NCBI RefSeq assembly: GCF_009914755.1
Contig: NC_060942.1
DNA: 64,000 nucleotides
Strand: one strand, 5' to 3'
Source of the DNA: the human T2T-CHM13v2.0 reference genome, Homo sapiens
The notes beneath the pieces are model-generated. The model was not told the origin of the DNA. It did not search any database and saw only the letters and a program-made list of their open reading frames with translations. A program made the position numbers and the translations under genes. Below are positions 4,565 to 59,680 of the stretch, in pieces; the first letter of the stretch is position 1, and every line of letters begins with the position of its first letter.

Positions 4565-6311
4565 ACTTCAGCCTAAATATATTTTAGAGCAAAGATATTA
4601 TCAGGAATAAAAAAGCTTATTTTACACTAAGAAAGGGGCAAGAACACATAAAAATTGTAACAATCTAACATTTCATAATAGAGTTTCAAAATACACCAGA
4701 GAAAAACTGATAGAACTGCAAATAGAAATTGAAAATTGCACAAAATTATAGTTGGAGATTTTATCCAAGACAAATTAAAACACATATTCACACAAAGACT
4801 TGCACATAAATGTTCATAACAACTTTTTACTTGTGACAATCCAAAGCTGGCAACAACTCCAACGTTCATAAATATGTGCATGAATGAACAGATACGGTTT
4901 ATTCCCATGATGGAAATCTGTTCAATAATAAAAAGAAATAAACTTTCAATACACCCACCAAGATAGAGAAATCTCAAAAAAAATTATTGTGAGTGAAAAA
5001 AAGGAAGAGAAAATGTACCTAAAATAAAATTTTATTAATCTAAATTATAAAAAATGCAAACTAATTTGTAGTTACAGAAAGTAGATCAGTAGTTGTTTGG
5101 CCTGAAGTAGAGTTATGAGGAGGGATGGAAGGGAGAGATCAGAAAGAGTTACAAGGAATTTTTTGGGAGGGTGATGAATATGTTCATTATCATGATTTTG
5201 TTGATAGATATACATCATTTCTCAAAATTTGTCACATGTAAAAATGTGTCAAAATTTTCCACATCATTTACTTTAAATATGTGCTGTTTACTGTACATAA
5301 ATTATACTCACATTAAGCCAAAAAAATTAAATTAGGATGAGTTTTATTGTAAAATCATCAACACATTACAAGTACACTTTGTACATTAGAGTGTACTTGT
5401 AAATAATTGATTTGTATTTTTTCCCTTGTTACTTTAACACACTTATAATTTGTCCACTATTTGTAGTTTGCAGGGGAAAAATTCAAAATGACGGAAATAG
5501 AACCTAAAGAAAAAAAAAATCTCCAAGCAGAGACAGGAACCACTTGAGAGAGATATTAAATACAGTTTCTTCTACAATATTCATTGAATGACAATTAGCT
5601 ATCAGGCACATTAGATTAAAGAGTATAGTAACCTTGTGATAATAGCGTTCAGTGAGCTTAAATCTGGAAAATAGATGTAATAGCCACTTTTCAATCTACC
5701 TTTTTTCTTCCTGCACTACTGTTACTTCACATAATATTGGGATAAATGAACAATGATTTTGTTGTTGATCTTTCTTGATGTTAATATTTTCATAATGTAA
5801 TGTCTTTTTCTTTTAGAAATTTTAAATATAAATTGAGAGTTCTCAATTTTAAATTTGCACATATTTGTTCTGATATGTAAATGAACATAGCAGTTGTCTT
5901 TGTCTTAATAACAATTGTATATTCTTATGTATTCATCTTGTCACTGTATTATCCTTTTTTCTGAATTCACGTTGAGATAAAATATTTTAAAATTGCTATT
6001 ATTTGGAGGGGAAACGACAGAAAAAAAAGTATTTTTCTTTGCAAGTGATGACAAATTTTAAAAATACCTAATAATGTTTAGCATTAGCACCATTTAAAAA
6101 ATAAATGTCATACTCTCAACAGTAAAAGAATGTAAGCAGAATCAACACATTGGTCAGTATGATAAACTTTTGTGCTTAAATGCAGAAGTCTTTGCCCCTT
6201 ATGATGCGCATTATGTATAAATTATCTATATAAAATTTTTAAATTGAAAGGCTTTTGTTATTTCACTCCTGTGACATCTGAATACTTAGTAGACACTATG
6301 TTTTAGCCAGT

Positions 6312-6856
6312 TATCCTCTGTCCAGAAGAAAGATTAAAATACATACCTTAAATTATTTGTTGCTAAATAGATAGGAGTATATGGTATCCATATTTATGGG
6401 CATACACTGAAATATTGACAAAGTCTTCTCCCTAAGTAATCATGACTCATGCTCCTGCAGCTCCTGTTTTTTTGTACTCGGCATACATTCAGTTGTGAAA
6501 ACAAGGCGTCCCTCCTCTAGCAGCTGTTCTATGAATCTGAGCTCACTCAAGAACCACAGAGCTAGTTCCCTTGGTTTCATATGAAACTTCCCAGTTTTAG
6601 AGTCAATTCACCATAGACAGGTTTCCCAGTAAATACTTTAAAACTTACAGCCAGTGGAAATAAGACCCTGTGATTTTAATGAAATAAAAATCATTGCATA
6701 AACATTGATATGTAAGAGTCTTGATTTTAGTACCTAAGGATCAGTTTGGGGATTTTTTTTTCAGAAAGGATACCAAGATCTGTAAACTTCTAGTGATGTC
6801 TCGTTTATATGACCACCTTTTTTGTGGGCACAAACTCATCTTAAAGAACTGTCTTC
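6312..6856 (+). repeat. Left arm of ~545-bp inverted duplication
   Basis: Reverse complement of 7871-8418, compared by eye. Differences: 3 substitutions, a 1-nt indel and a T9/A11 homopolymer, all in the inner ~105 bp. Confidence 0.97.
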
Positions 6857-7559
6857 CAGTTGATCACTTCTGTATTGATCACATAAAGAACTGTAGGCTC
6901 TTCTCAGTTACATCTCATGAAGCTGGATTCTTTTTCTCATTCTAGGTTGATGTGTTTTATAACCCACTCCTCCATCCTGTATATTTCTTCTAAAATAAGT
7001 ATATGAAATTTTTTCTATGATGCCTGTATGAATATTTGAGCAGTTAATTCCACTATTAAATTTAATTGTTTTGAGTATAAATTTCAGCAAATGAAAACCC
7101 AAGAGAAGTAGAGAAATATGTTCATAGTGTAATATAGCTAGATGTATTGCAGTATGTAGTTTCCCAAACATATTTCATAGCATATACAACATATATATTT
7201 CTGTATAACATATTCCTTTCTGCATATTAATTGTGCCTGTGGTTTGAAATATGTTAACTATGATCATGGAATCAAAACAAGTACATATATACATACATGT
7301 AAGTGAATGAGTCTGTTACTGTATAACTTGTTAAAATAATAAGCTAAAATAAATTTCTATGTCTATGTAAGATTTCTAGTGATGTAGATTAGTATGCATG
7401 TAGTTGGACATTCAAGAAAAAGTGCAATCAAACTATAATCGTAAAAGTTTCATTGAGGATATCTGTAATCTAGAATTGAATTTATCTTTCTTAACATTTT
7501 TCTGTTTACTCTGATTTCCACTAAAATTCCCTGAAAAAATATTTTGGGTTCCCCTCTTC

Positions 7560-7868
7560 CTGGTCTCTGTATACATTCTGCAATAAGGCTGTTGCCTTCC
7601 CACTCACACCTCCATCAAAATTTCTCTTAGCAAGAGCACAATGCCCTCCTCCTGGTGTCAAAATCCCGTGGCCAATTCTCGTCCCTAGCTATGGCATTTG
7701 AGTCAGCCACTCCCATTTCCATGATATACTTTCTTCTCTATCCTTGCAAGACAGTTTTGTCTCACTTGCTTGATCTGCCTCTTCTCCTAGACTTGTTCAT
7801 GTAGATGCTTGGTCCCTGACGTTAGTTCCTGTTGCTCCTGATGATCTTGTTCATAATTATGACATTTA
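7560..7868 (+). mobile_element. L2 fragment (continues at ~11540)
   Basis: L2-like motifs (caaaatcccgtggccaattctc, ggcatttgagtcagccactccc, gatgatcttgttc). Boundaries approximate. Confidence 0.6.
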
Positions 7869-7870
7869 TA

Positions 7871-8418
7871 GAAGACAGTTCTTTAAGATGAGTTTGTGCC
7901 CACAAAAAGAGGTGGTCACATAGACGAGACATCACTAGACGTTTACAGATCTTGGTATCCTTTCTGAAAAAAAAAAATCCCCAAACTGATCCTTAGGTAC
8001 TAAAATCAAGACTCTTACATATCAATGTTTATGCAATGATTTTTATTTCATTAAAATCACAGGGTCTTATTTCCACTGGCTGTAAGTTTTAAAGTATTTA
8101 CTGGGAAACCTGTCTATGGTGAATTGACTCTAAAACTGGGAAGTTTCATATGAAACCAAGGGAACTAGCTCTGTGGTTCTTGAGTGAGCTCAGATTCATA
8201 GAACAGCTGCTAGAGGAGGGACGCCTTGTTTTCACAACTGAATGTATGCCGAGTACAAAAAAACAGGAGCTGCAGGAGCATGAGTCATGATTACTTAGGG
8301 AGAAGACTTTGTCAATATTTCAGTGTATGCCCATAAATATGGATACCATATACTCCTATCTATTTAGCAACAAATAATTTAAGGTATGTATTTTAATCTT
8401 TCTTCTGGACAGAGGATA
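7871..8418 (-). repeat. Right arm of ~545-bp inverted duplication
   Basis: gaagacagttctttaag...tcttctggacagaggata is the reverse complement of 6312-6856. Confidence 0.97.
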
Positions 8419-11400
8419 TATATTTTTTTTAATTTTTATGGGTATAGTAGGTGTAGATGAGATATTTATGGGGTAGATGAGATATTTTGATACAGGCGTA
8501 CAATGCATAATAATCACATCAGGGTAAATGGGGTGTCCATCACCTTAAGCATTTATCCTTTGTGTTACAAACAATCCAATTGCACTACTTTAGTTATTTT
8601 TAAATAACTAGTAAATTATTTAAAATAAGTAAGTATAATTATAGTAAATTATGGCTAATTATTATTTGGCCATATTACTTGGCCAAATTTAATGGCCAAT
8701 TAAAATTATGGCCAAATATTATAGCCACCACAACATGGTGGCTATTTGACTATAGTAAAATACAGTTTCTCAGTATGATGCCACCATGTTGTGCCATCAA
8801 ATGCTAAATCTTATTCATTCTTTCTAAAAACTACGCCGTACCCATTAGCCATCCACACTTCCTCCCCATGACCTCACTATCCTTTCTAGCCCCTGGTAGC
8901 CATCACTGTATTCTCTATTTCCATGAGTTCAATTGTTTTAATGTTTACCTCCCATAAGTAAGTAAGAACATGAGAAGTTTGTCCTTCTGTGCCTGGCTTA
9001 ATTCACTTAACATAATAACCTCCAGTTCCATTCATGTTGTTGAAAATGACAGGATCTCATTCTTTCTTAGGGCTGATTAGTACTCCATTGTGTATATCTA
9101 ACACATTTTCTTTCTCTATTTTTCTGTTGGTGAACACAGAGGGTTGCTTCCAAGGCTTGTCTATTGTAAATAGTGCAGCCATAAACATGGGAGTGCAGAT
9201 ATCTCTTCAATGTACTGTTATCCTTTTTTTTTAAGTACATACCTGGCAGTGGGATTGCTGTATCATATATTAGGTCAATTTTTAGCTTTTTGAGTGACAT
9301 CCAAACTGTTCTCCACAGTGGTTGTGCTAATTTACATTTCTACGAACAGTGTATGAGGATTCCCTTTTCTCCACCTCCTCGCCAGTATTTGTTATTGCTT
9401 GTCTTTTGGATAAAACACATTTTAACTGGGGTGAGATGATATCAATATTAGCTTTAATTTGCATTTCTCTGATGATAATAATATCAAGCACTTTTTCATA
9501 CCTGTTTGCTATTTTTATGTCTTGTAATGACAAATGTCTGTTTAGATCTTTTGCCAATTTTTAGCTGGATTATTAGATTATTTCCTATTGAGTTGTTTGA
9601 GCTCCTAATATATTCTGGTTATTAATCTCTTCTCAGGTGAAGAGTTTGCAAATATTTTCTTCCATTCTGTGGGTTGTCTCTTCACTTTGTTACCTGTTTC
9701 CTTTGCTGTGCAGAAGCTTTTTAACTTCACGTGATCCCATTTGTCCACTTTTGCTTTGATTGCCTGTGTTGTGTGGTATTACTCAAGAAACTTTTGCTCA
9801 CTCCAGTGTCCTGGAGAGATTCCCCAATGTTTTCTTTTAGTAATTGAATAGTTTGATGTCTTGGATTTAAGTCTTTAATCCATTTTGGTTTGAGCGTTGT
9901 ATATGGCGAGACATACGGGTCTAGTTTCATTCTTCTGCACATGGATATTCAGTCTTCCCAGCATCATTTATCAAAGAGACTGTCCTTTCCCCAGTATATG
10001 TTCTTGGCACCTTTGTCATAAATGAGTTCATTGCAGATGTATGGATTTGTTCATGGGCTCTCTATATTGTTCCATTCGTCTATGTGTCTGGTTTTATGCC
10101 AGTACCATGCTGTTTTGGTACTGTTCATGTGATTCCTCCAGTTTTGTTCTTTTTGTTCAGAATAGCTTTGGCTCTTACGAGTCTTTCTAAAATAAAAAAA
10201 AAAGGACTGACAGTAGGATTGTTTTTCTATTTCTGTGAAGAATGTCATTGGTATTTTGAGAGGTGTTTTATTGAACTGTAGATTTCTTAGAATACTATGG
10301 ACATTTTAACAATATTGATTCTTCCACTCAATGAACATGGAATATCTTTCCATATTTTTGTGTCCTCTTCAATTTCCTTCATCAGTGTTTAATTGTAGAG
10401 ATATTTTACTTCTTTGGTTAACTCCTACATATTTCATTTTCTTTGTAGCTATTGTAAATGGGATTACTTTCTTGTTTTTCATATTATTTGTTGCTGGCAT
10501 ATAGAGATGCTATTAATTTTTATATGTCAATTTTCTATCCTGCAGCTTTTTTAAATGTATTTATCAGTTCTTACACTTTTTGATGGAGTCTTTAGGTTTT
10601 TCCAAATGTAAGATTATGTCAACTGCAAACAAGGATAATTTGACACCTTCCTTTTCAATTTGGGTGCCCTTTATTTCTTTCTTTTGTCTGATTGCTCTAG
10701 CTAGGGCTTCCAGCAATATGTTGAATAACAGTGGTGACAGTGGGCATCCTTTTCATGTTACAGATCTTAGGGGAAAGGCTTTCAGTTTTTTTCCCCATTC
10801 AGTATAATGCTAGTTGTGGGTGTGTCATATATGGCTTTTATTGTATTGATGAATATTCCTTATACAGTTTTTTAGGTTTTTTTAGGGTTTTTTTTAATCA
10901 TGAAGAGATGTTGAATTTTATCAAATTCTTTTTCAGCATCAATTGAAATGATCAGATGATTTTTATCCTTCATTCTTTTGATATGTATCACATTGATTGA
11001 TATGTGTATGTTAAACTATCCTTGTATCCTTGGGATGAATCCCACTTGGTCAGGATGAATAATCTTTTTAATATGTAGTTTAATTCAATTTGCTAGCATT
11101 TTGTTGAGGATTTTTGCATCGATGTTCATAAGGAATACTGGTCTGTAGTTTTCCTTTTTTGATGTGTATTTTTCTGATTTTGGTATTAGAGTAACACTGG
11201 CCTCATAGAATGAGTTTGGGAGGATTCCCTCCTCTTCTGTTTTTGGAATTGTTTAAGCAGGATTGATATTAGTTCTTCTTTAAGTGTTTGGTAAAATTCA
11301 GCAGTGAAGCCATCAGAACCTAGGCTTTTCTTTGCTAGGGGACTTTTTATTAAGACTTCAATCTTTTTACATGTTATTGGTCTGTTCTGGTTTTGGATTT

Positions 11401-11537
11401 CTTCATAGTTCAACCTTAGCAGGTTATATGCGTCTAGGAATTTATCCATTTCTTCTAGGTTTTCCAATTTATTAGCATATAGTTGCTCATACTAGCTGCT
11501 AATGATCCTTTTAATTTCTGTGGTCTCAGCTGTAATC
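8419..11537 (-). mobile_element. 5'-truncated L1 (L1MA1-3-like): 3' UTR plus 3' part of ORF2, decayed
   Basis: T-rich tail at ~8420. L1MA-type 3' UTR (gagatattttgatacaggc...tgtgttacaaacaatccaatt). ORF2-like peptides such as [15 protein letters not shown]...[12 protein letters not shown] and MKLDPYVSPYT, with stops and frameshifts. Confidence 0.93.
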
Positions 11538-11539
11538 AG

Positions 11540-12833
11540 GATAATTACTTTAAATAACATTTAAATCCTGACAACACCAAAAGTTTCATCTCTACCCCAG
11601 ATTCACATGCATTCAGAAACACTTATTTGACTTCTCCTCTTAAATGTTTAGAATACTTTCAAAATTGAACTTCTGATATTTCCCCTATAAACCTGTTCTA
11701 TCTGCAGTCTACTTACTCGTCTCAGTCAATGGCATTTTCAATCTTCTGGTAGTTCAGACCAAAAAACTTGGACTCATTTTTGATTCTTCTTTGGTTCTCA
11801 GACTATGCTGGCTCACCAAAAATCCTGTTGTTTTGAACTCCCTGTCACCTGGTCTGGAGCGTAGTGTGATTATCATGACTCACTGCAACTTTCACTTCCC
11901 TAGCTCAAGCAATCCTCCCACCTCAGCTTCTTGAGTAGCTGGGACTACAGGCACACACCACCACACCTGGCTAATTTTTGTATACTTTTTATAGAGACAG
12001 GGTCTGTCTCACCATGTTGCCCAGGCTGGTCTCAAACTCCTTAGCTCAAGCAATCTGCCCGCCTTGGCCTCCCAAAGTGCTGAGATTACAGCCAGGAGCC
12101 ATCATGCCCAGCTGAGCCACTGTTATTTCTAACCAAGTTATATGTCATCAGTTTCTAAGGTTATATCATTCCCTCTGTCTATTCTTGGCAAAGTCAAAGT
12201 TAAACTCTTAAAACAAAAGGTGAGTTATGTCACTCCTACCTTTCGAGCTCTGCAATGGCTTCCCCGTGAACTCGGAGGAAGTGCTTATGACAGCCTGCAT
12301 GCCTATCCTAATGACATACATCCCCACCTCCTCAATTATCTCTCTGATTTGTCATCTACTCTTATTCCCCTCACTTTCTCCATTTCACTGGCCACAGGCC
12401 TCCTCGATATGTTTAGAACAGACCAGACAACATTCTGCTAACATGTGTTTTTGCATTGGCTTTTACTTCTCCCCAGAATGCCTTCCCTCCCCTTGGCTAT
12501 CTAGGGTACCTCAACGGTTAACTTTTAACTTTTTTTTTAGTTCCTTACTCAAAAGTCACTTTAACAGTGAGGCCTACCTACCTTGAACACACTATTAAAA
12601 TTTAGCCCATGAATAGCACTTCTGATCTTTTGCTCACTCTATTTTATGTATTTAATTAGCACTTGTCACCTTCTTTTATACTATATAATTTTCTCATTTA
12701 GTAGGTTTATTATTGATTTCTGTCCCTCTCCATTACAATGTAGAAAAGAAAGAGTTGTCTGCTTTCTTCACTGATGTCACCTAACCCCCATAAGCACAAA
12801 CTAGGCACTTAATTAAATATTTGTTGTATTGAA
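11540..12833 (+). mobile_element. L2 3' portion with an inserted Alu
   Basis: L2 motifs (aaaattgaacttctgat, cagaccaaaaaacttggactcat, ctgcaatggcttccc) and tail taggcacttaattaaatatttgttg. Confidence 0.75.
11838..12112 (-). mobile_element. Alu (AluJ-like), tail missing
   Basis: gctcaagcaatcctcccacctcagc...cctcccaaagtgctgagattaca. Confidence 0.92.
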
Positions 12834-14935
12834 TAGACTCAGTTACATTACCAGGAATAACTTGAAACCATAGAGCAGACCCTTCCTGGGTCATTAACTA
12901 TCCTTCTGGAAGAGGGTTTTGGATAACACAAAAGTGAAACAAAGAAACCTACACAGAACTTATGAGCACCACCTTATACTTCCAGCCCTGTCCAGCAACT
13001 GTGGCTCCCTGAAAAACCATTTAAATTAGTTAAACCTTAGCTTCTATAGACAGTGTCATAGCTATTTTAATTACAATATAACAAAATGCTTAATAAAATT
13101 AGATTCAAATATGTGGAATGCACAGCATGGCCCTAGAAGTTAACTTGCAATTAATTAAAAAATAGCTTCTTTTCATTCTTTCCCCTTTCTATTCTCTTTC
13201 TTGTTTTCAATTTGCTCACCCTGGGGACCTGTGGCTTTAAAGATACATTTTTTAAATGTTTATTTGCTTTTTTAAAAGTATATTTATTACACATATTTGG
13301 TGTACATGTTATGCTATTATATTTTCATACTTACATGTGTCTGACAGGAATCTGAACTCTTAGGAGTAAAGTGTTTAAAAATAATACAAGCCCTTTCGAA
13401 GCAAATTAGAATTGGTTCCAATATCATTCTCTTACCACTATACTTTAGGAGGCAAATTGAGCTTTTTCACTGCTATAAGATTATGTTTCATTATTAATCA
13501 GACAAGAAAAATTTTAAAAGCAATTTAATGTAAATATCTTGAAGTATTCTACATTAATAAAAACAAACTTGGTCTTCTGAATGAGTGTTTTTGATAGAGA
13601 GGCATAATTTGTCTCAGTTTATAGATAGAAAAATTACAGTTACATGAGCTGTCTAGGTACAAAGCTCAATCAATCAACTAACATGGAAGTTAATCATGTT
13701 ATTGTCCCCACTTAACTCACTTCCCTCACACTCGGTAGGCACTAGTCCAAGAAGTAACATAACGATGCCATCAAGAACTCACAGGAGGATCCTGTATATT
13801 TCCACTGCCTTAAATAGAGCGTTTAAGCATCTTTGAGTTCACTTAACCTATCCATGAGTACTGTTAAAAGTGTTTCATGTAGAATACATTGAGAGTCCAT
13901 ATGATGAGAAATATTTAACATATACATATACATATATATATGTTTCTTTTTAATATTTTGAAGCCTTTGTGCAAAGGTGTCCCACTTGGCTATATAAAAA
14001 AGTATTCCTTTCCTGCTTTGAAAGTGTAAAACAGAGTAGATTAAACGTTCAGTTTTAAACAGAAGCATGATTGATGACTCTCTCCACCTCTCTTCCATCT
14101 AATTTTACCATGGACACTTTAAATATTAGAAGATGAAAGTGTATGCCATAGAAGTTAAGGATGCTTTCGATGAGAAAAAAGGTTATCTTCAATAACTTGG
14201 AAACACTGAAATATATTCCTTCCCTACTTTTCCCAGATCATAAAACTCAGCATTTTTTCTCCTGTGATGTTTTCTACTTTGTAACAATTTTGTTTTTCAA
14301 AAACAAGATAAACCAAGCAAGCAACAGAACAAAGAAAAAAAAATGAAACCCATCTAATCATACAGTGTACATTCTTAGGTAATGCTACTACATTGTGCCT
14401 AAGACTCTTACAACTGAGGAAGAGCGGAATTATTTTGCACTACTAGAGAATGAAGAACAATAAATCAAAGTGACAAGTGATCAACTTGTGACCTATAAGT
14501 AAATGTATGGATGAGACTAAATTGTTAACTCGTATGAGTTCCCCCTTGAGAGCTATTACATATTTAGTAATGAATGATTGGAAAAGCAAAGATGAAGAAA
14601 GGAAAGAACATAAAACTTTGTAGCACTTACTACTTTTCAGGCACTTGGCTATGAAGTTCTACATGCATTCTGATTTTTCTCAAGTAACTGTGTGGAGTAT
14701 AACTGGGCCCATTTTTTAAGGCTGAAATCTGAGCCGTAGCTAGGTTGAGTCTTATTAGACCTTGTTAACATTGCTAGAAACTGGCAAAACACTGAGCGGT
14801 GCACCAAAGGGAATGATGTCTGATAAACACTATACAATGGGAAGAGAGTGAGGTTGCATTCAGGGTCTGTGATTATTAATGGCTTTCAAAATATGGTTGC
14901 TAAGTCAGTAGGAATGTTATATATGTTATATATGA

Positions 14936-15273
<338 letters not shown>

Positions 15274-16289
15274 GAGGAAAGCTTTTAAAAACCTAACAAG
15301 GCAAGTGTTTGCCACAGACCAATAATTGGAACATTTGCCAAGCCAGATATATTGGCTTTTCTGTTTGGGGGGTGTTTGGTTTTTGTTCTTGATTTTTTCC
15401 CCATTGAGATTTTTATGCAAAATTATCTGATACAAAGATTGGGAAAAGGAAAAACAGGTGATTAAAACAGCTTAGATTCCACAAAAAAAAATGCTGATTG
15501 GTACAAGAGGTCTAACCAGATGGGTGACAAAAGTGCTTGGGGACCAATAATCTCTGCATGGTTGCTTCCCTTAGACAGGTGGCTGCAGAATTCTTACACT
15601 ATAAATTAAGGAAACAGTTGGAATTCACCTTTAAACATCAGCCTTCCTGTCAGAGCACTGACAAGGTGATCTGTGGTGCTGACTCACTTTCAGCAACTGT
15701 TCAAAAGCACATTTTTAATATCAGATGCTTACTTTAAACAAAATATGTTTCCATCAGCACTGAGTTGTAGCCTCTAGACTACGTCTTAGTTTGTAGCTGC
15801 TTTTACAAGTTGAACATCGATTTAGAAAAGGGGGTTATGTTTCATAAGTATTGCATCTTTTCTTAATTTTTAGGGAACTGAAACTTGCTATTATTTGTAC
15901 ATTTACGTGTGTTTTATATTTATACGTGCCATAAACTTTCCTAGTTTGTAAATCAATTTAATGTGTTTATTAAATATTTTTGGTAGTTCAAGTTCACTTG
16001 GGTCTTAGATTTTTATGTACCCTTAGAACTTAAAAACTTCAAGCATTTTAAGAACTGGTTCTGCCCTGGAGAGGCAGTATAACTTTGAAATACTATTTCC
16101 TCATCAGTACCGTGATAATAACACCTAACTCACAACAAATTGTTAAACTAGGTTGACATATGTAAACCCCACATATATGGAATCCCATTAACTAAACTTT
16201 ATATATAAAATATTTATATGTTACATATACAATATTTGCTGCATAAAATATTCAGAAAATGCTGCTATAATCCAACATCTAAGACTATT

Positions 16290-16470
16290 CTTTATATATA
16301 TATATAAATACATATACACACACAGGCATACACAACACACACACACACCAGTATATATGTATAATATTTATATATGTGTATATATACCAGTTTTATATAA
16401 ATTACTCTCTCTACATATAATGTAACTATATATTTAAATATATGTTATATTTATATTTATATAAAGAGAG
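16290..16470. repeat. (TA)n/(CA)n low-complexity tract
   Basis: Directly visible. Confidence 0.8.
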
Positions 16471-17249
16471 ATGATGTAAATACTCCTAACTAAAGGAAAT
16501 GATGCCTGAGAAGTATATTTAGCACAGTATCTTGCACATAGCAAATAATAGGGGTGATGATGATAGTGATGACTTTTATGTTTATGTCATCAGGCACTTA
16601 GTATCTAGTCAAATAAATACAGATGGCTCTTAAAATCATATAGTGGTTGTTTAAGTACGTGTTAGCTTGATTTTTCACTGAAACTTGGTTAAATTTGTGG
16701 TACAACTTTAAATGAGTGGGAACATGGGTAGAAGTAACAGAGAGTAAGTGGTAAAGTGTTTAATAAGCGAACCTTAGCAGGAACCGAAAATTGCAACTGA
16801 GTACCTGGAGGGAGGGGTTGGAGAGCTGTCAGCTTCAAGAGCCAAGTTGGAGAACCAGTCAGGTGAGAAAGGAAGATTACTTCCTCCTGATTAGAACAGA
16901 GAGCCATGGGAATTTGTTCTGCTGATGAGCAGATGTATAATGAAGATCTTTTTTCTTTTTGCTTCCGCCTGGAAAGAGAGAATCAGAAAAAGTCTTATAA
17001 CAAAAAGTAAGTGGAAATAGAGCAAGGACTTTCTAGATGATTAGGAAAACCAGGAAAGCAAAAAGGATAACCATCTCCCTAAAAGACTTAGCAGACTGAA
17101 TGGAGGAAAACCGCTAGCAGAAAACTCACTCACATTTTCTTTCATACCCAGTTGCCTTGGAATCCGCAAGTCACTGTTAGGTAAATGACCTGAAACGTTG
17201 TTTGGGTTTGAAGTTATCTCCTAGATAGAGTGATATTAGAGGACAAGAA

Positions 17250-57088: not shown

Positions 57089-57258
57089 ACAAATTCACTA
57101 CTAGATTGTGTTTGTGTTTTTTCTTTGCTTCTCCACCCTATCATTTTTAGTTGGTACATGCAAGCTAAGTTTATCAATACTTCAAACAATCCTCTAACTG
57201 GGAAGTCAGATCAACACAAGGTAAGTTGTAAGACTGCAATTTATCTTGCAGCTAGTTA
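57089..57258 (+). repeat. Left arm of ~170-bp diverged inverted duplication
   Basis: Reverse complement of 59507-59680, roughly 85-90% identical by eye. Confidence 0.93.
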
Positions 57259-57496: not shown

Positions 57497-57563
57497 CTCA
57501 TGGGACCTAAGGTGGGATATTTTTTCTCTAAAAATAGGAAGCAATGAAATAAATGTAAAATCT

Positions 57564-58275
57564 AAAACAGGAAACAACAGATGCTGGCAAAGCTGTGGAG
57601 AAATAGGAGTGCTTTTACAATGTTGGTGGGAGTGTAAATTAGTTCAACCATTGTGGAAGACAGTGTGGTGATTCCTCAGGGACCTAGAACAAGAAATACC
57701 ATTTGACTCAGGAATCCCATCACTAGGTATATACCCAAAGGATTATAAATCATTCTACTATAAAGACACATGCACATGTGTGTATATTGTAGTATCATTT
57801 ATAATAGGAAAGACTTGGAACCAACCCAAATGTCCATCAATGATAGACTGGATAAAGAAAATGTGGCACATCTACACCATGGAATACTATGCATCCATAA
57901 AATAGAATGAGTTTATGTCCTTTGCAGAGACATGGATGAAGCTGGAAGCCATCATTCTCAGCAAACTAACCCAGGAACAGAAAACCAAATACCACATGTT
58001 CTCACTCATAAGTGGGAGTTGAACACTGAGAACACGTGGACACAGGGAGGGGAACATCACACAGTGGGGCCTGTTGCAGGGTGGGGGGAAAGGGGAGTGA
58101 GAGCATTAGGACAAATACCTAATGCATGAGGGGCTAAATAAAAAAAGTAATAACTAGATGACAGGTTGATAGGTGCAGCAAACGACCATGGCACATGTAT
58201 ATCTGTGTAAGAAACCTGCACGTTCTGCACAGTATCCCAGAACTTAAATAAAGTAAAATAAAATAAAATAAAAGT
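57564..58275 (+). mobile_element. L1PA 3' end (L1PA7/8-like)
   Basis: ORF2 C-terminal region and 3' UTR (gttctcactcataagtgggag, aatacctaatgcatg, ggtgcagcaaac), (TAAAA)n tail. Confidence 0.93.
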
Positions 58276-58465
58276 TACATAAGCAAAGAGGAAAAAGAAG
58301 GGCTTCTCAGGAAAAGATGAAAATATGAACGACACAGTGGCAGAAAGCTTGGAGAACAGCAGGGACTGAAAGAGTGCCAAAGGCAGGTGTGGAGAGAGTA
58401 TGGGGAGGTATATTTTAAGGGCACAGAGGAGAATTGCGGCCTGAAGTGGAGGTTCATGATGGGCA

Positions 58466-59506: not shown

Positions 59507-59680
59507 TAACTAGCTGCAAGATAAATTGTAGTCTTACAACTTATCTTGTGTAGATCTTACTTCCTAGTTAGACGATTGTTAGAACTATTGATAAAATTAG
59601 CTTGCATATACCACCTAAAAATGAGAAGTAGGGTGGGGGAATAAGGAAGAGACACAAACACAATCCAGTAGCCAATTTGT
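59507..59680 (-). repeat. Right arm of ~170-bp diverged inverted duplication
   Basis: taactagctgcaagataaattg...gccaatttgt matches the reverse complement of 57089-57258. Confidence 0.93.

What the first reader, a model, noticed from the sequence alone, without database searches (positions are those of the whole stretch)
6312..8418. Near-identical 545-bp inverted duplication around a 1-kb spacer: candidate recurrent inversion
Seen: 6312-6856 and 7871-8418 are reverse complements, and the arms match no repeat family I recognise. The outer ~440 bp are identical. All differences (3 substitutions, a 1-nt indel, T9 vs A11) lie in the inner ~105 bp. The spacer is 1014 bp. Established: close, highly identical inverted repeats mediate NAHR inversions and arm-to-arm gene conversion. 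Inference: the identity gradient looks like a conversion or exchange tract, so the spacer may flip between haplotypes.
Basis: partly seen in the sequence, partly recalled or inferred. Interest (0 to 1): 0.8.

Follow-up and report, generated by a model that had tools for sequence, protein, structure and literature searches.

The report
Small unique inverted duplication, chromosome 18
Two nearly identical 545-base copies of a sequence found nowhere else in the genome face each other across 1 kb of a human chromosome 18 gene desert; this is a real but ordinary kind of structure, and the inversion call sets I could read list no flip of the middle piece.

Summary
Arms 6312-6856 and 7871-8418 are reverse complements around a 1,014-bp spacer. 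The outer 450 nt are identical. All differences (3 substitutions, a T9/T11 run, a 1-nt indel) lie in the inner 95 nt.

The arms and spacer have no other copy in T2T-CHM13, so this is a local inverted duplication of unique sequence, not a repeat family. At under 1 kb it falls below the segmental-duplication threshold.

The clustering of differences is non-random (substitutions P=0.005). That fits arm-to-arm gene conversion over an older duplication. It fits a young duplication made by error-prone replicative copying almost as well. Ape orthologues, which I could not reach, would decide.

The "recurrent inversion" reading has no support:
- No inversion ID on chr18 at 60-70 Mb in the HGSVC3 CHM13-based (276) or GRCh38-based (298) call sets from 65 people.
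- No chr18 row at the estimated hg38 position among 612 candidate inverted-repeat inversions.
- Only 6 of 319 uncatalogued inverted duplicate pairs were polymorphic in 54 people.

No gene, RNA family or protein domain is present. It is a new member of a known kind, of low interest.

The parts
6312..6856 (+). Left arm of the inverted duplication (545 nt)
   Evidence: Only two copies exist in the whole assembly, namely the two arms.
6857..7870 (.). Spacer (1,014 nt), unique sequence with no internal symmetry
   Evidence: Whole-genome search finds only itself. Left half against the reverse complement of the right half scores like shuffles.
7871..8418 (-). Right arm (548 nt), reverse complement of the left arm
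6312..6761 (+). Outer block, 450 nt, 100% identical to 7969-8418
   Evidence: pair I1.
6753..6818 (+). Patch holding every difference between the arms: T9 vs T11 run, substitutions at 6788, 6805 and 6809, and a 1-nt indel after 6818. The partner patch is 7909-7977.
   Evidence: Substitutions: 0 of 450 outer against 3 of 95 inner positions, Fisher P=0.005. Three substitutions within 21 nt, permutation P=0.004.
6819..6856 (+). Innermost 38 nt, identical again to 7871-7908
   Evidence: pair I3.
8419..11536 (-). Old high-copy interspersed repeat abutting the right arm. From memory of the sequence it is a 5'-truncated L1 on the minus strand, with T-run 8423-8430 as its poly(A) tail. No tool named it.
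   Evidence: 3,061 first-look candidates, 39 non-self scored matches at 83-88%; seven other copies share the same terminus at the T-run; 14,280 candidates, most matches end at query 837, which is window 11536; 12120-14950 is unique.
6308..6311 (+). CAGT just before the left arm, repeated at 6857-6860 just after it. Likewise TATA at 7867-7870 and 8419-8422 around the right arm. These are 4-nt direct repeats flanking each arm.
   Evidence: Read. This is a post hoc observation and its significance was not established.

Best explanation
This is a single-locus inverted duplication of unique, non-coding sequence, a miniature palindrome with a 1-kb spacer, in the gene desert upstream of CDH7. One local event copied about 545 bp in reverse orientation 1 kb away. 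The most likely route is a replicative template switch or break repair (inferred; which arm is the parent could not be settled). Since then the arms have exchanged sequence by arm-to-arm gene conversion. That erased differences over the outer 450 nt and left an unconverted patch near the spacer (inferred from the pattern of identity). The structure has no detectable function. It is a potential substrate for non-allelic homologous recombination, but the spacer does not appear to flip at appreciable frequency in present-day humans.
For: Shown:
- Anatomy and identity pattern.
- Arms, spacer and the left junction are unique in the 3.1-Gb assembly. There is no further copy in the window at word size 7.
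- Arm edges are sharp.
- No Pfam domain reaches its cut-off in five of the 20 reading frames of 40 aa or more. No Rfam family matches at E<=1. The supplied table annotates no gene.
- Differences cluster non-randomly: 0 of 450 against 3 of 95 substitutions, P=0.005.
- No inversion at this locus in the HGSVC3 call sets or the 612-region catalogue.
- Low base rate for uncatalogued inverted pairs: 6 of 319.

From the literature:
- Mammalian conversion tracts are usually a few hundred bp and rarely over 1 kb, and near-identical blocks occur inside more diverged inverted duplicates, for example a 782-bp 99.9% block in 94% duplicates at HsInv0209 (PMC3961182, passages).
- Large sex-chromosome palindromes keep over 99% arm identity by conversion (PMC8981503, abstract in search listing).

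Inference, using a recalled mutation rate of about 1.2e-8 per site per generation:
- Zero differences in 450 nt bounds the last homogenisation or origin at roughly 280,000 generations or fewer (95%).
- Three substitutions in 95 nt point to about 1.3 million generations, with a wide Poisson interval.
Against: The unconverted patch is only 95 nt with 3 substitutions, so the 'old' age rests on very few events. Its confidence interval nearly touches the upper bound for the identical block.

The identity runs to the very last base of the outer edge. Conversion should be least efficient at arm edges, so only the inner edge behaves as expected.

No ape or other human haplotype could be examined, so concerted evolution is not demonstrated.

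No PRDM9-like 13-mer (motif recalled from memory) lies in 6312-8418 at up to 1 mismatch.

The test of which arm is parental, using the target-site duplication of the flanking L1-type repeat, was inconclusive. The right-arm end matched 8 of 10 (empirical P=0.027), but the spacer end matched 11 of 17, at about the 95th percentile of the null.
Confidence: 0.5

Rival explanations
1. This is a young, possibly human-lineage duplication made by a replicative mechanism (fork stalling and template switching, or microhomology-mediated break-induced replication). The low-fidelity synthesis left a patch of errors near one junction. There has been no later gene conversion and no inversion.
For: All differences sit in one 66-nt patch, 38-104 nt from the inner junction. 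Two of the five are length changes in T runs, the typical slippage error of break-induced replication.

At all three substitutions and the 1-nt indel the left arm carries A/T or a gap where the right arm carries G/C. That is what one-sided change on one arm would give.

Zero differences in 450 nt is compatible with an age of up to a few million years (inference from a recalled mutation rate).

BIR and MMBIR are described as error-prone, with point mutations and single-base insertions acquired with the rearrangement (PMC4352052, passages, citing Carvalho 2013 and Deem 2011, which I did not read).

Four-nt direct repeats flank each arm, as a return template switch would leave.
Against: Four or five errors within about 70 nt is more than the one or two changes per junction described in the passages I read.

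Junction microhomology is weak. I find none at the inner junction and at most 3 nt (ATA) at the outer one under the 'right arm is the copy' model (read).

No nearby template explains the patch as a short template switch: the best local matches are 6-8 nt.

Polarity of the changes is unknown without an outgroup.
Confidence: 0.3
2. This is the first reader's reading: the inverted repeat drives recurrent non-allelic homologous recombination, so the 1-kb spacer exists in both orientations among human haplotypes.
For: A 450-nt perfect inverted match only 1 kb apart exceeds the few hundred bp of identity that I recall homologous exchange needs. Inverted repeats as short as 140 bp flank validated polymorphic inversions (PMC13629690, section 4 and Table S1 part 1). 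In that first part of Table S1, 8 of 18 rows with both repeats under 1 kb were polymorphic.
Against: No inversion ID on chr18 at 60-70 Mb appears in either HGSVC3 call set from 65 samples, although calls of 842 and 861 bp are present.

There is no chr18 row at the estimated hg38 position in the 612-region catalogue, which merges five large studies and paired-end predictions.

Only 6 of 319 unpredicted inverted pairs were polymorphic.

In Table S1 part 1, all 8 polymorphic sub-kb cases have transposon-derived repeats. The four with unique-sequence repeats (types IR or SD: HsInv0032, 0062, 0064, 0066) are all marked not polymorphic. HsInv0062 has nearly the same architecture as this locus: 668/669-bp arms and 1,015 bp between them.

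A crossover alone swaps arm halves and does not make arms identical.
Confidence: 0.1
3. This is a DNA transposon, or a foldback-type element, with 545-bp terminal inverted repeats inserted at a TA site.
For: The unit is bounded by TA on both sides. Because TA is its own reverse complement, a TA target duplication would look like part of the repeat.
Against: Arms and spacer occur once each in the genome apart from the partner arm. No transposase or other domain was found in the five frames scanned. From my own knowledge, no DNA transposon has been active in the human lineage recently enough to keep 450 nt identical.
Confidence: 0.02
4. This is an assembly artefact: a false inverted join or a duplicated arm in T2T-CHM13.
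For: None from the calls.
Against: The whole unit is 2.1 kb, far shorter than the long reads used for this assembly (my knowledge). The arms differ at five places, so they are distinguishable. No inversion or misorientation against GRCh38 is listed at the locus in the GRCh38-based or CHM13-based call sets. Read-level data could not be examined.
Confidence: 0.02

Closest known systems
Candidate inverted-repeat-mediated inversion regions of the InvFEST / Caceres-laboratory catalogue (e.g. HsInv0062: 668/669-bp 'IR' arms, 1,015 bp between; HsInv0064: 520-bp arms)
   Same: It has sub-kilobase, unique-sequence, near-identical inverted arms a kilobase or so apart on an autosome. It has the same predicted behaviour as a substrate for non-allelic homologous recombination.
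   Different: This locus is not in that catalogue at the position I estimated. The comparable unique-sequence entries were themselves found not polymorphic in 54 people.
Sex-chromosome palindromes (human Y P1-P8, X palindromes) maintained by arm-to-arm gene conversion
   Same: It has two inverted arms around a unique spacer and very high arm identity, and conversion is the proposed cause of that identity (abstracts of PMC8600007 and PMC8981503 in the search listing).
   Different: The arms here are 0.5 kb rather than 9 kb to 1.4 Mb (sizes recalled). The locus is autosomal and has no genes. Conversion is inferred from one haplotype only.
Inverted duplications made by replicative template switching (FoSTeS / MMBIR), including DUP-TRP/INV-DUP
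   Same: An inverted copy lies close to its parent. A patch of small mutations near a junction matches the error-prone synthesis described for these mechanisms (PMC4352052).
   Different: Those are mostly large, pathogenic, de novo events with demonstrable junction microhomology. Here the event is small and of unknown age, and microhomology is at most 3-4 nt.
Segmental duplications (as annotated: over 1 kb and over 90% identity; definition quoted in PMC12350169 and PMC13629690)
   Same: It is duplicated non-transposon sequence at about 99% identity.
   Different: The arms are 545/548 bp, below the 1-kb threshold. Screens that start from annotated inverted segmental duplications, such as the 319 pairs, cannot contain it.

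Membership tests
Polymorphic inversion mediated by inverted repeats (NAHR) | Highly identical inverted repeats at both ends of the segment | tested here: met
   545/548-nt arms, 450 nt at 100%.
Polymorphic inversion mediated by inverted repeats (NAHR) | Both orientations of the intervening segment observed among individuals | tested here: not met
   Tested only through published call sets. There is no chr18 60-70 Mb inversion ID among the 276 CHM13-based or 298 GRCh38-based HGSVC3 inversions. There is no chr18 row at the estimated hg38 position among 612 candidate regions. Haplotype sequences themselves were not available.
Polymorphic inversion mediated by inverted repeats (NAHR) | Recurrence: the same inversion on several haplotype backgrounds or in several species | not testable with these tools
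   No other human haplotype or primate genome is held (one search states that the genome has no relatives here).
Palindrome maintained by arm-to-arm gene conversion (concerted evolution) | Arm identity higher than expected from the age of the duplication | tested here: inconclusive
   Identity is uneven: 0 of 450 against 3 of 95 substitutions, P=0.005. The age of the duplication is unknown.
Palindrome maintained by arm-to-arm gene conversion (concerted evolution) | Paralogous arms group within species rather than by position across species | not testable with these tools
   No orthologous ape sequence is available.
Interspersed repeat / transposable element with terminal inverted repeats | Multiple dispersed copies in the genome | tested here: not met
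   The arm matches only the two arms and the spacer only itself in 3.1 Gb. The same tool finds thousands of candidates for the neighbouring repeat and an 84% match for part of the left flank, so copies at about 80% identity or more would have been seen. Older copies near 70% could be missed.
Interspersed repeat / transposable element with terminal inverted repeats | Transposase or other element-encoded protein, or its remnant | tested here: not met
   Five of the 20 stop-to-stop frames of 40 aa or more were scanned against Pfam. No match reached its curated cut-off; the best was E=0.0089 at 16.9 bits against a cut-off of 24.9.
Segmental duplication (annotation class) | Length over 1 kb with over 90% identity | tested here: not met
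   Identity is about 99% but the length is 545/548 nt. The definition is quoted.
Replicative (FoSTeS/MMBIR) inverted duplication | Microhomology at the breakpoint junctions | tested here: inconclusive
Four-nt direct repeats flank each arm (CAGT, TATA), with at most 3 nt of junction microhomology under one model (read).
Replicative (FoSTeS/MMBIR) inverted duplication | Small mutations clustered near a junction and all derived on the new copy | tested here: inconclusive
   Clustering is met. Polarity is not testable without an outgroup.

The most novel reading that the evidence does not exclude
This is a sub-kilobase autosomal palindrome of unique sequence, tens of millions of years old. It would have been kept almost identical by repeated arm-to-arm gene conversion, with occasional NAHR flips of the spacer that standard structural-variant callers miss. 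That would be the behaviour known from the megabase sex-chromosome palindromes, operating at a scale below every segmental-duplication catalogue.
Probability: 0.15. Interest if true: 0.45.

Novelty: new member of a known kind. Interest (0 to 1): 0.22.

Why it matters
The locus itself matters little. It lies in a gene desert, encodes nothing detectable, and no orientation polymorphism is recorded for it.

Its modest value is as an example of a class that annotation misses. Inverted duplicates under 1 kb are excluded by the segmental-duplication definition, so they are also excluded from screens that start from annotated inverted duplications.

If ape orthologues showed both arms with species-specific homogenisation, it would be a clean, small and easily sequenced model for measuring conversion tract ends in an autosomal inverted repeat. 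If instead it is human-specific, the patch of five changes would be a natural example of error-prone replicative duplication fixed in the population.

Tried and rejected
- **Repeat family or transposon.** Rejected on copy number and the absence of domains.
- **Known RNA family in 5500-9500.** No match at E<=1.
- **Tandem repeats.** Only short AT-rich arrays, all outside the arms.
- **Weaker homology beyond the arm edges (a larger, decayed palindrome).** None found.
- **Short local template switch as the source of the difference patch.** The best local matches are 6-8 nt.
- **Dating and polarising the duplication through the target-site duplication of the flanking L1-type repeat.** Inconclusive, because both candidate left-hand sites score near or above the 95th percentile of the null.
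- **Mapping that repeat by translating 8419-17000.** Stopped by stop codons. I mapped it by genome searches instead.
- **PRDM9-like hotspot motif inside the unit.** None at up to 1 mismatch. The motif was recalled from memory.
- **Another human haplotype as contamination in bacterial assemblies.** 0 matches to a 38-nt arm sequence.
- **Literature.**
  - Giner-Delgado 2019 (PMC6748972): no chr18 in the text or in the 12 of 18 supplementary files searched.
  - Aguado 2014 (PMC3961182): no chr18 in the text.
  - Porubsky 2022 Cell (PMC9563103) and the id I recalled for Ebert 2021 are not held.
  - The Porubsky preprint text has no chr18, and its supplements are closed.
  - PMC12229492 tables list only gene-overlapping inversions.
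  - A search for CDH7, 18q22 and inversion polymorphism found nothing relevant.
  - No search turned up a description of this locus. Supplements I could not see may list it: the Porubsky 2022 and Ebert 2021 tables, and the full HGSVC and HPRC variant files.

Full report
**Observation.** The inverted repeat is exactly as described.
- The repeat finder reports 6312-6761 against 7969-8418 as 450 nt at 100% complementarity. Inward of that come a 71-nt stretch at 94% and a final 38 nt at 100%.
- Alignment of the left arm with the reverse complement of the right arm gives 545 against 548 nt.
- The differences are a T9 versus T11 run, three substitutions (6788, 6805, 6809 against 7940, 7923, 7919) and one single-base indel (7909).
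- The spacer is 6857-7870, 1,014 nt.
- Homology ends abruptly at all four edges. Sequence beyond the edges aligns no better than shuffles.
- In the whole 64-kb window this is by far the strongest inverted pair. The others are 82-287 nt at 73-92%; from memory of the sequence most of them look like Alu elements.

**What the arms are.** The window's own genome (T2T-CHM13, 3.1 Gb) can be searched.
- The arm finds only the two arms.
- The spacer finds only itself.
- A query across the left outer junction finds only itself and the partner arm.
- The same tool finds an 84% match on another chromosome for part of the left flank, and thousands of candidates for the repeat to the right. Copies down to roughly 80% identity would therefore have been seen.
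- A word-7 blastn of the 2,107-bp unit against the window finds nothing else.
- Of the 20 stop-to-stop frames of 40 aa or more, I scanned five against Pfam. None reached a curated cut-off.
- Rfam has no match at E<=1, and the supplied table annotates no gene.

So this is a local inverted duplication of unique, apparently non-functional sequence. It is not a transposon with long terminal repeats. It is also not an annotated segmental duplication, because the arms are shorter than the 1-kb threshold quoted.

**Surroundings.** The right arm ends four bases before a T-run (8423-8430).
- From 8419 onward the sequence is a high-copy repeat: 3,061 first-look candidates, with scored copies at 83-88%.
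- Seven other copies all begin their mutual homology at the same T-run.
- The repeat runs to 11536, where most of the matches stop. Beyond an Alu-like stretch, 12120-14950 is unique.
- From memory of the sequence I read this as a 5'-truncated, old L1 on the minus strand whose poly(A) tail abuts the right arm. No tool named it.
- I tried to use its target-site duplication to learn whether the right arm was already there when the L1 inserted. The right-arm end plus TATA (8413-8422) matches the sequence just beyond the L1 (11538-11547) at 8 of 10, empirical P=0.027. However, the end of the spacer matches the same sequence at 11 of 17, about the 95th percentile of the null. The test does not decide which arm is parental.
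- Each arm is flanked by a 4-nt direct repeat: CAGT around the left arm and TATA around the right. I noticed this after the fact and cannot explain why both arms show it.

**The identity pattern.**
- All three substitutions lie in the inner 95 nt and none in the outer 450 (Fisher P=0.005).
- They span only 21 nt (permutation P=0.004).
- With the two length changes, all five events lie in the last 95 positions (P about 1e-4), although homopolymer runs are hypermutable and should be discounted.
- Using a recalled mutation rate of about 1.2e-8 per site per generation, zero differences in 450 nt puts the last homogenisation, or the origin, within roughly 280,000 generations (95% bound). Three substitutions in 95 nt suggest around 1.3 million generations, with a Poisson interval that reaches down almost to that bound.

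Two explanations fit.
- (a) An older duplication whose outer 450 nt were recently homogenised by arm-to-arm gene conversion. Conversion tracts of a few hundred bp, and near-identical blocks inside more diverged inverted duplicates, are described in PMC3961182 (passages).
- (b) A young duplication made by an error-prone replicative mechanism that left a patch of mistakes near one junction. BIR and MMBIR are described as low-fidelity, with point changes acquired with the rearrangement, in PMC4352052 (passages).

In favour of (b):
- Two of the five changes are slippage in T runs.
- At all four other sites the left arm carries A/T or a gap where the right arm carries G/C.

Against (b):
- The number of changes is high.
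- Junction microhomology is weak.

A short local template switch does not explain the patch. I put (a) at about 0.5 and (b) at about 0.3. Only outgroup sequence can separate them, and none is available here (one search states that the genome has no relatives in the collection).

**Does the spacer flip?** I could not look at other haplotypes, so I used published call sets.
[quoted passage not shown] Its supplementary tables 37 and 38 are held and use IDs such as chr1-21030957-INV-861, so sub-kilobase inversions are included. Across the whole held file there are seven IDs beginning chr18-6, all in an unrelated linkage table. No coordinate beginning 65787-65790 belongs to chromosome 18. The file is marked as cut when stored, but both tables lie well inside the held part.
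- *The 612-region catalogue (PMC13629690).* This merges candidate inverted-repeat inversions from five large studies, paired-end predictions and annotated inverted segmental duplications (sections 4 and 13). Its Table S1 has no chromosome 18 row with hg38 coordinates beginning 6550 to 6562, nor 6540, 6545, 6565, 6570 or 6575.
  - The hg38 position (about 65.5-65.6 Mb) is my estimate from remembered assembly offsets, not a liftover.
  - In that study both orientations were seen for 155 of 612 regions, but for only 6 of 319 inverted duplicate pairs that no earlier study had predicted (section 7).
  - In the first part of Table S1, 18 rows have both repeats under 1 kb and 8 of them are polymorphic, all with transposon-derived repeats. 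The four with unique-sequence repeats are all marked not polymorphic. One of these is HsInv0062, whose architecture (668/669-bp arms, 1,015 bp between) is almost the same as here.
- *Other sources.* Giner-Delgado 2019 and Aguado 2014 do not mention chromosome 18 in what I searched. Porubsky 2022 and Ebert 2021 were not held.

Absence from call sets is not proof of a single orientation, because callers can miss small inversions inside repeats. It does remove any positive support for a common or recurrent inversion, which I put at about 0.1.

**Comparison with known kinds.**
- In mechanism the locus resembles the small inverted-repeat candidates of the InvFEST line of work.
- It also resembles, in miniature, the sex-chromosome palindromes that keep their arms alike by conversion (abstracts).
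- In origin it resembles replicative inverted duplications.
- It meets the structural criterion for an NAHR inversion substrate. It does not meet the criterion that makes something a polymorphic inversion, which is that both orientations have been observed.
- It fails the defining criteria of a transposable element (copy number, encoded protein) and of an annotated segmental duplication (length).

**Verdict.** The feature is real and correctly measured, and of a well-known kind. As far as my searches show, it has not been described individually. It is ordinary in consequence: no gene, no recorded polymorphism. The one open question is whether the identity pattern comes from conversion or from error-prone duplication. 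Aligning the ape orthologues and genotyping orientation in existing long-read assemblies would settle it. Interest is low.

Noticed in passing
window 57141-57258 and 59507-59624: A second, much weaker inverted pair: 118 nt at 91% complementarity with 2,248 nt between the arms. It lies next to stretches the hub lists as masked repeats (57515-57713, 57801-58329), so it is probably two fragments of one repeat family.
   Followed up: no
window 5524-5866: Part of the left flank has a single 84% match on another chromosome (G000:C4:101420745-101421087) and nowhere else. It is either a low-copy repeat or an old dispersed duplicate.
   Followed up: no
window 8594-8740: Inside the L1-type repeat to the right of the arms there is an AT-rich stretch with short tandem units of periods 10-21 and repeated 'TGGCCAA' motifs. 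It interrupts the homology to other copies, which resumes further right.
   Followed up: partly
window 6308-6311 / 6857-6860 and 7867-7870 / 8419-8422: Each arm of the inverted duplication is bracketed by a 4-nt direct repeat (CAGT...CAGT and TATA...TATA). A single insertion event would be expected to mark only the copied arm. No model I considered produces both, and TATA may be chance in a TA-rich context.
   Followed up: partly
whole window: The degenerate 13-mer CCNCCNTNNCCNC (recalled hotspot motif) occurs 41 times at up to 1 mismatch, against 11.4 expected. Many hits fall in stretches listed as masked repeats (for example 12059, 15220, 17799, 22015, 24600), so the excess probably reflects Alu content rather than anything local.
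   Followed up: no
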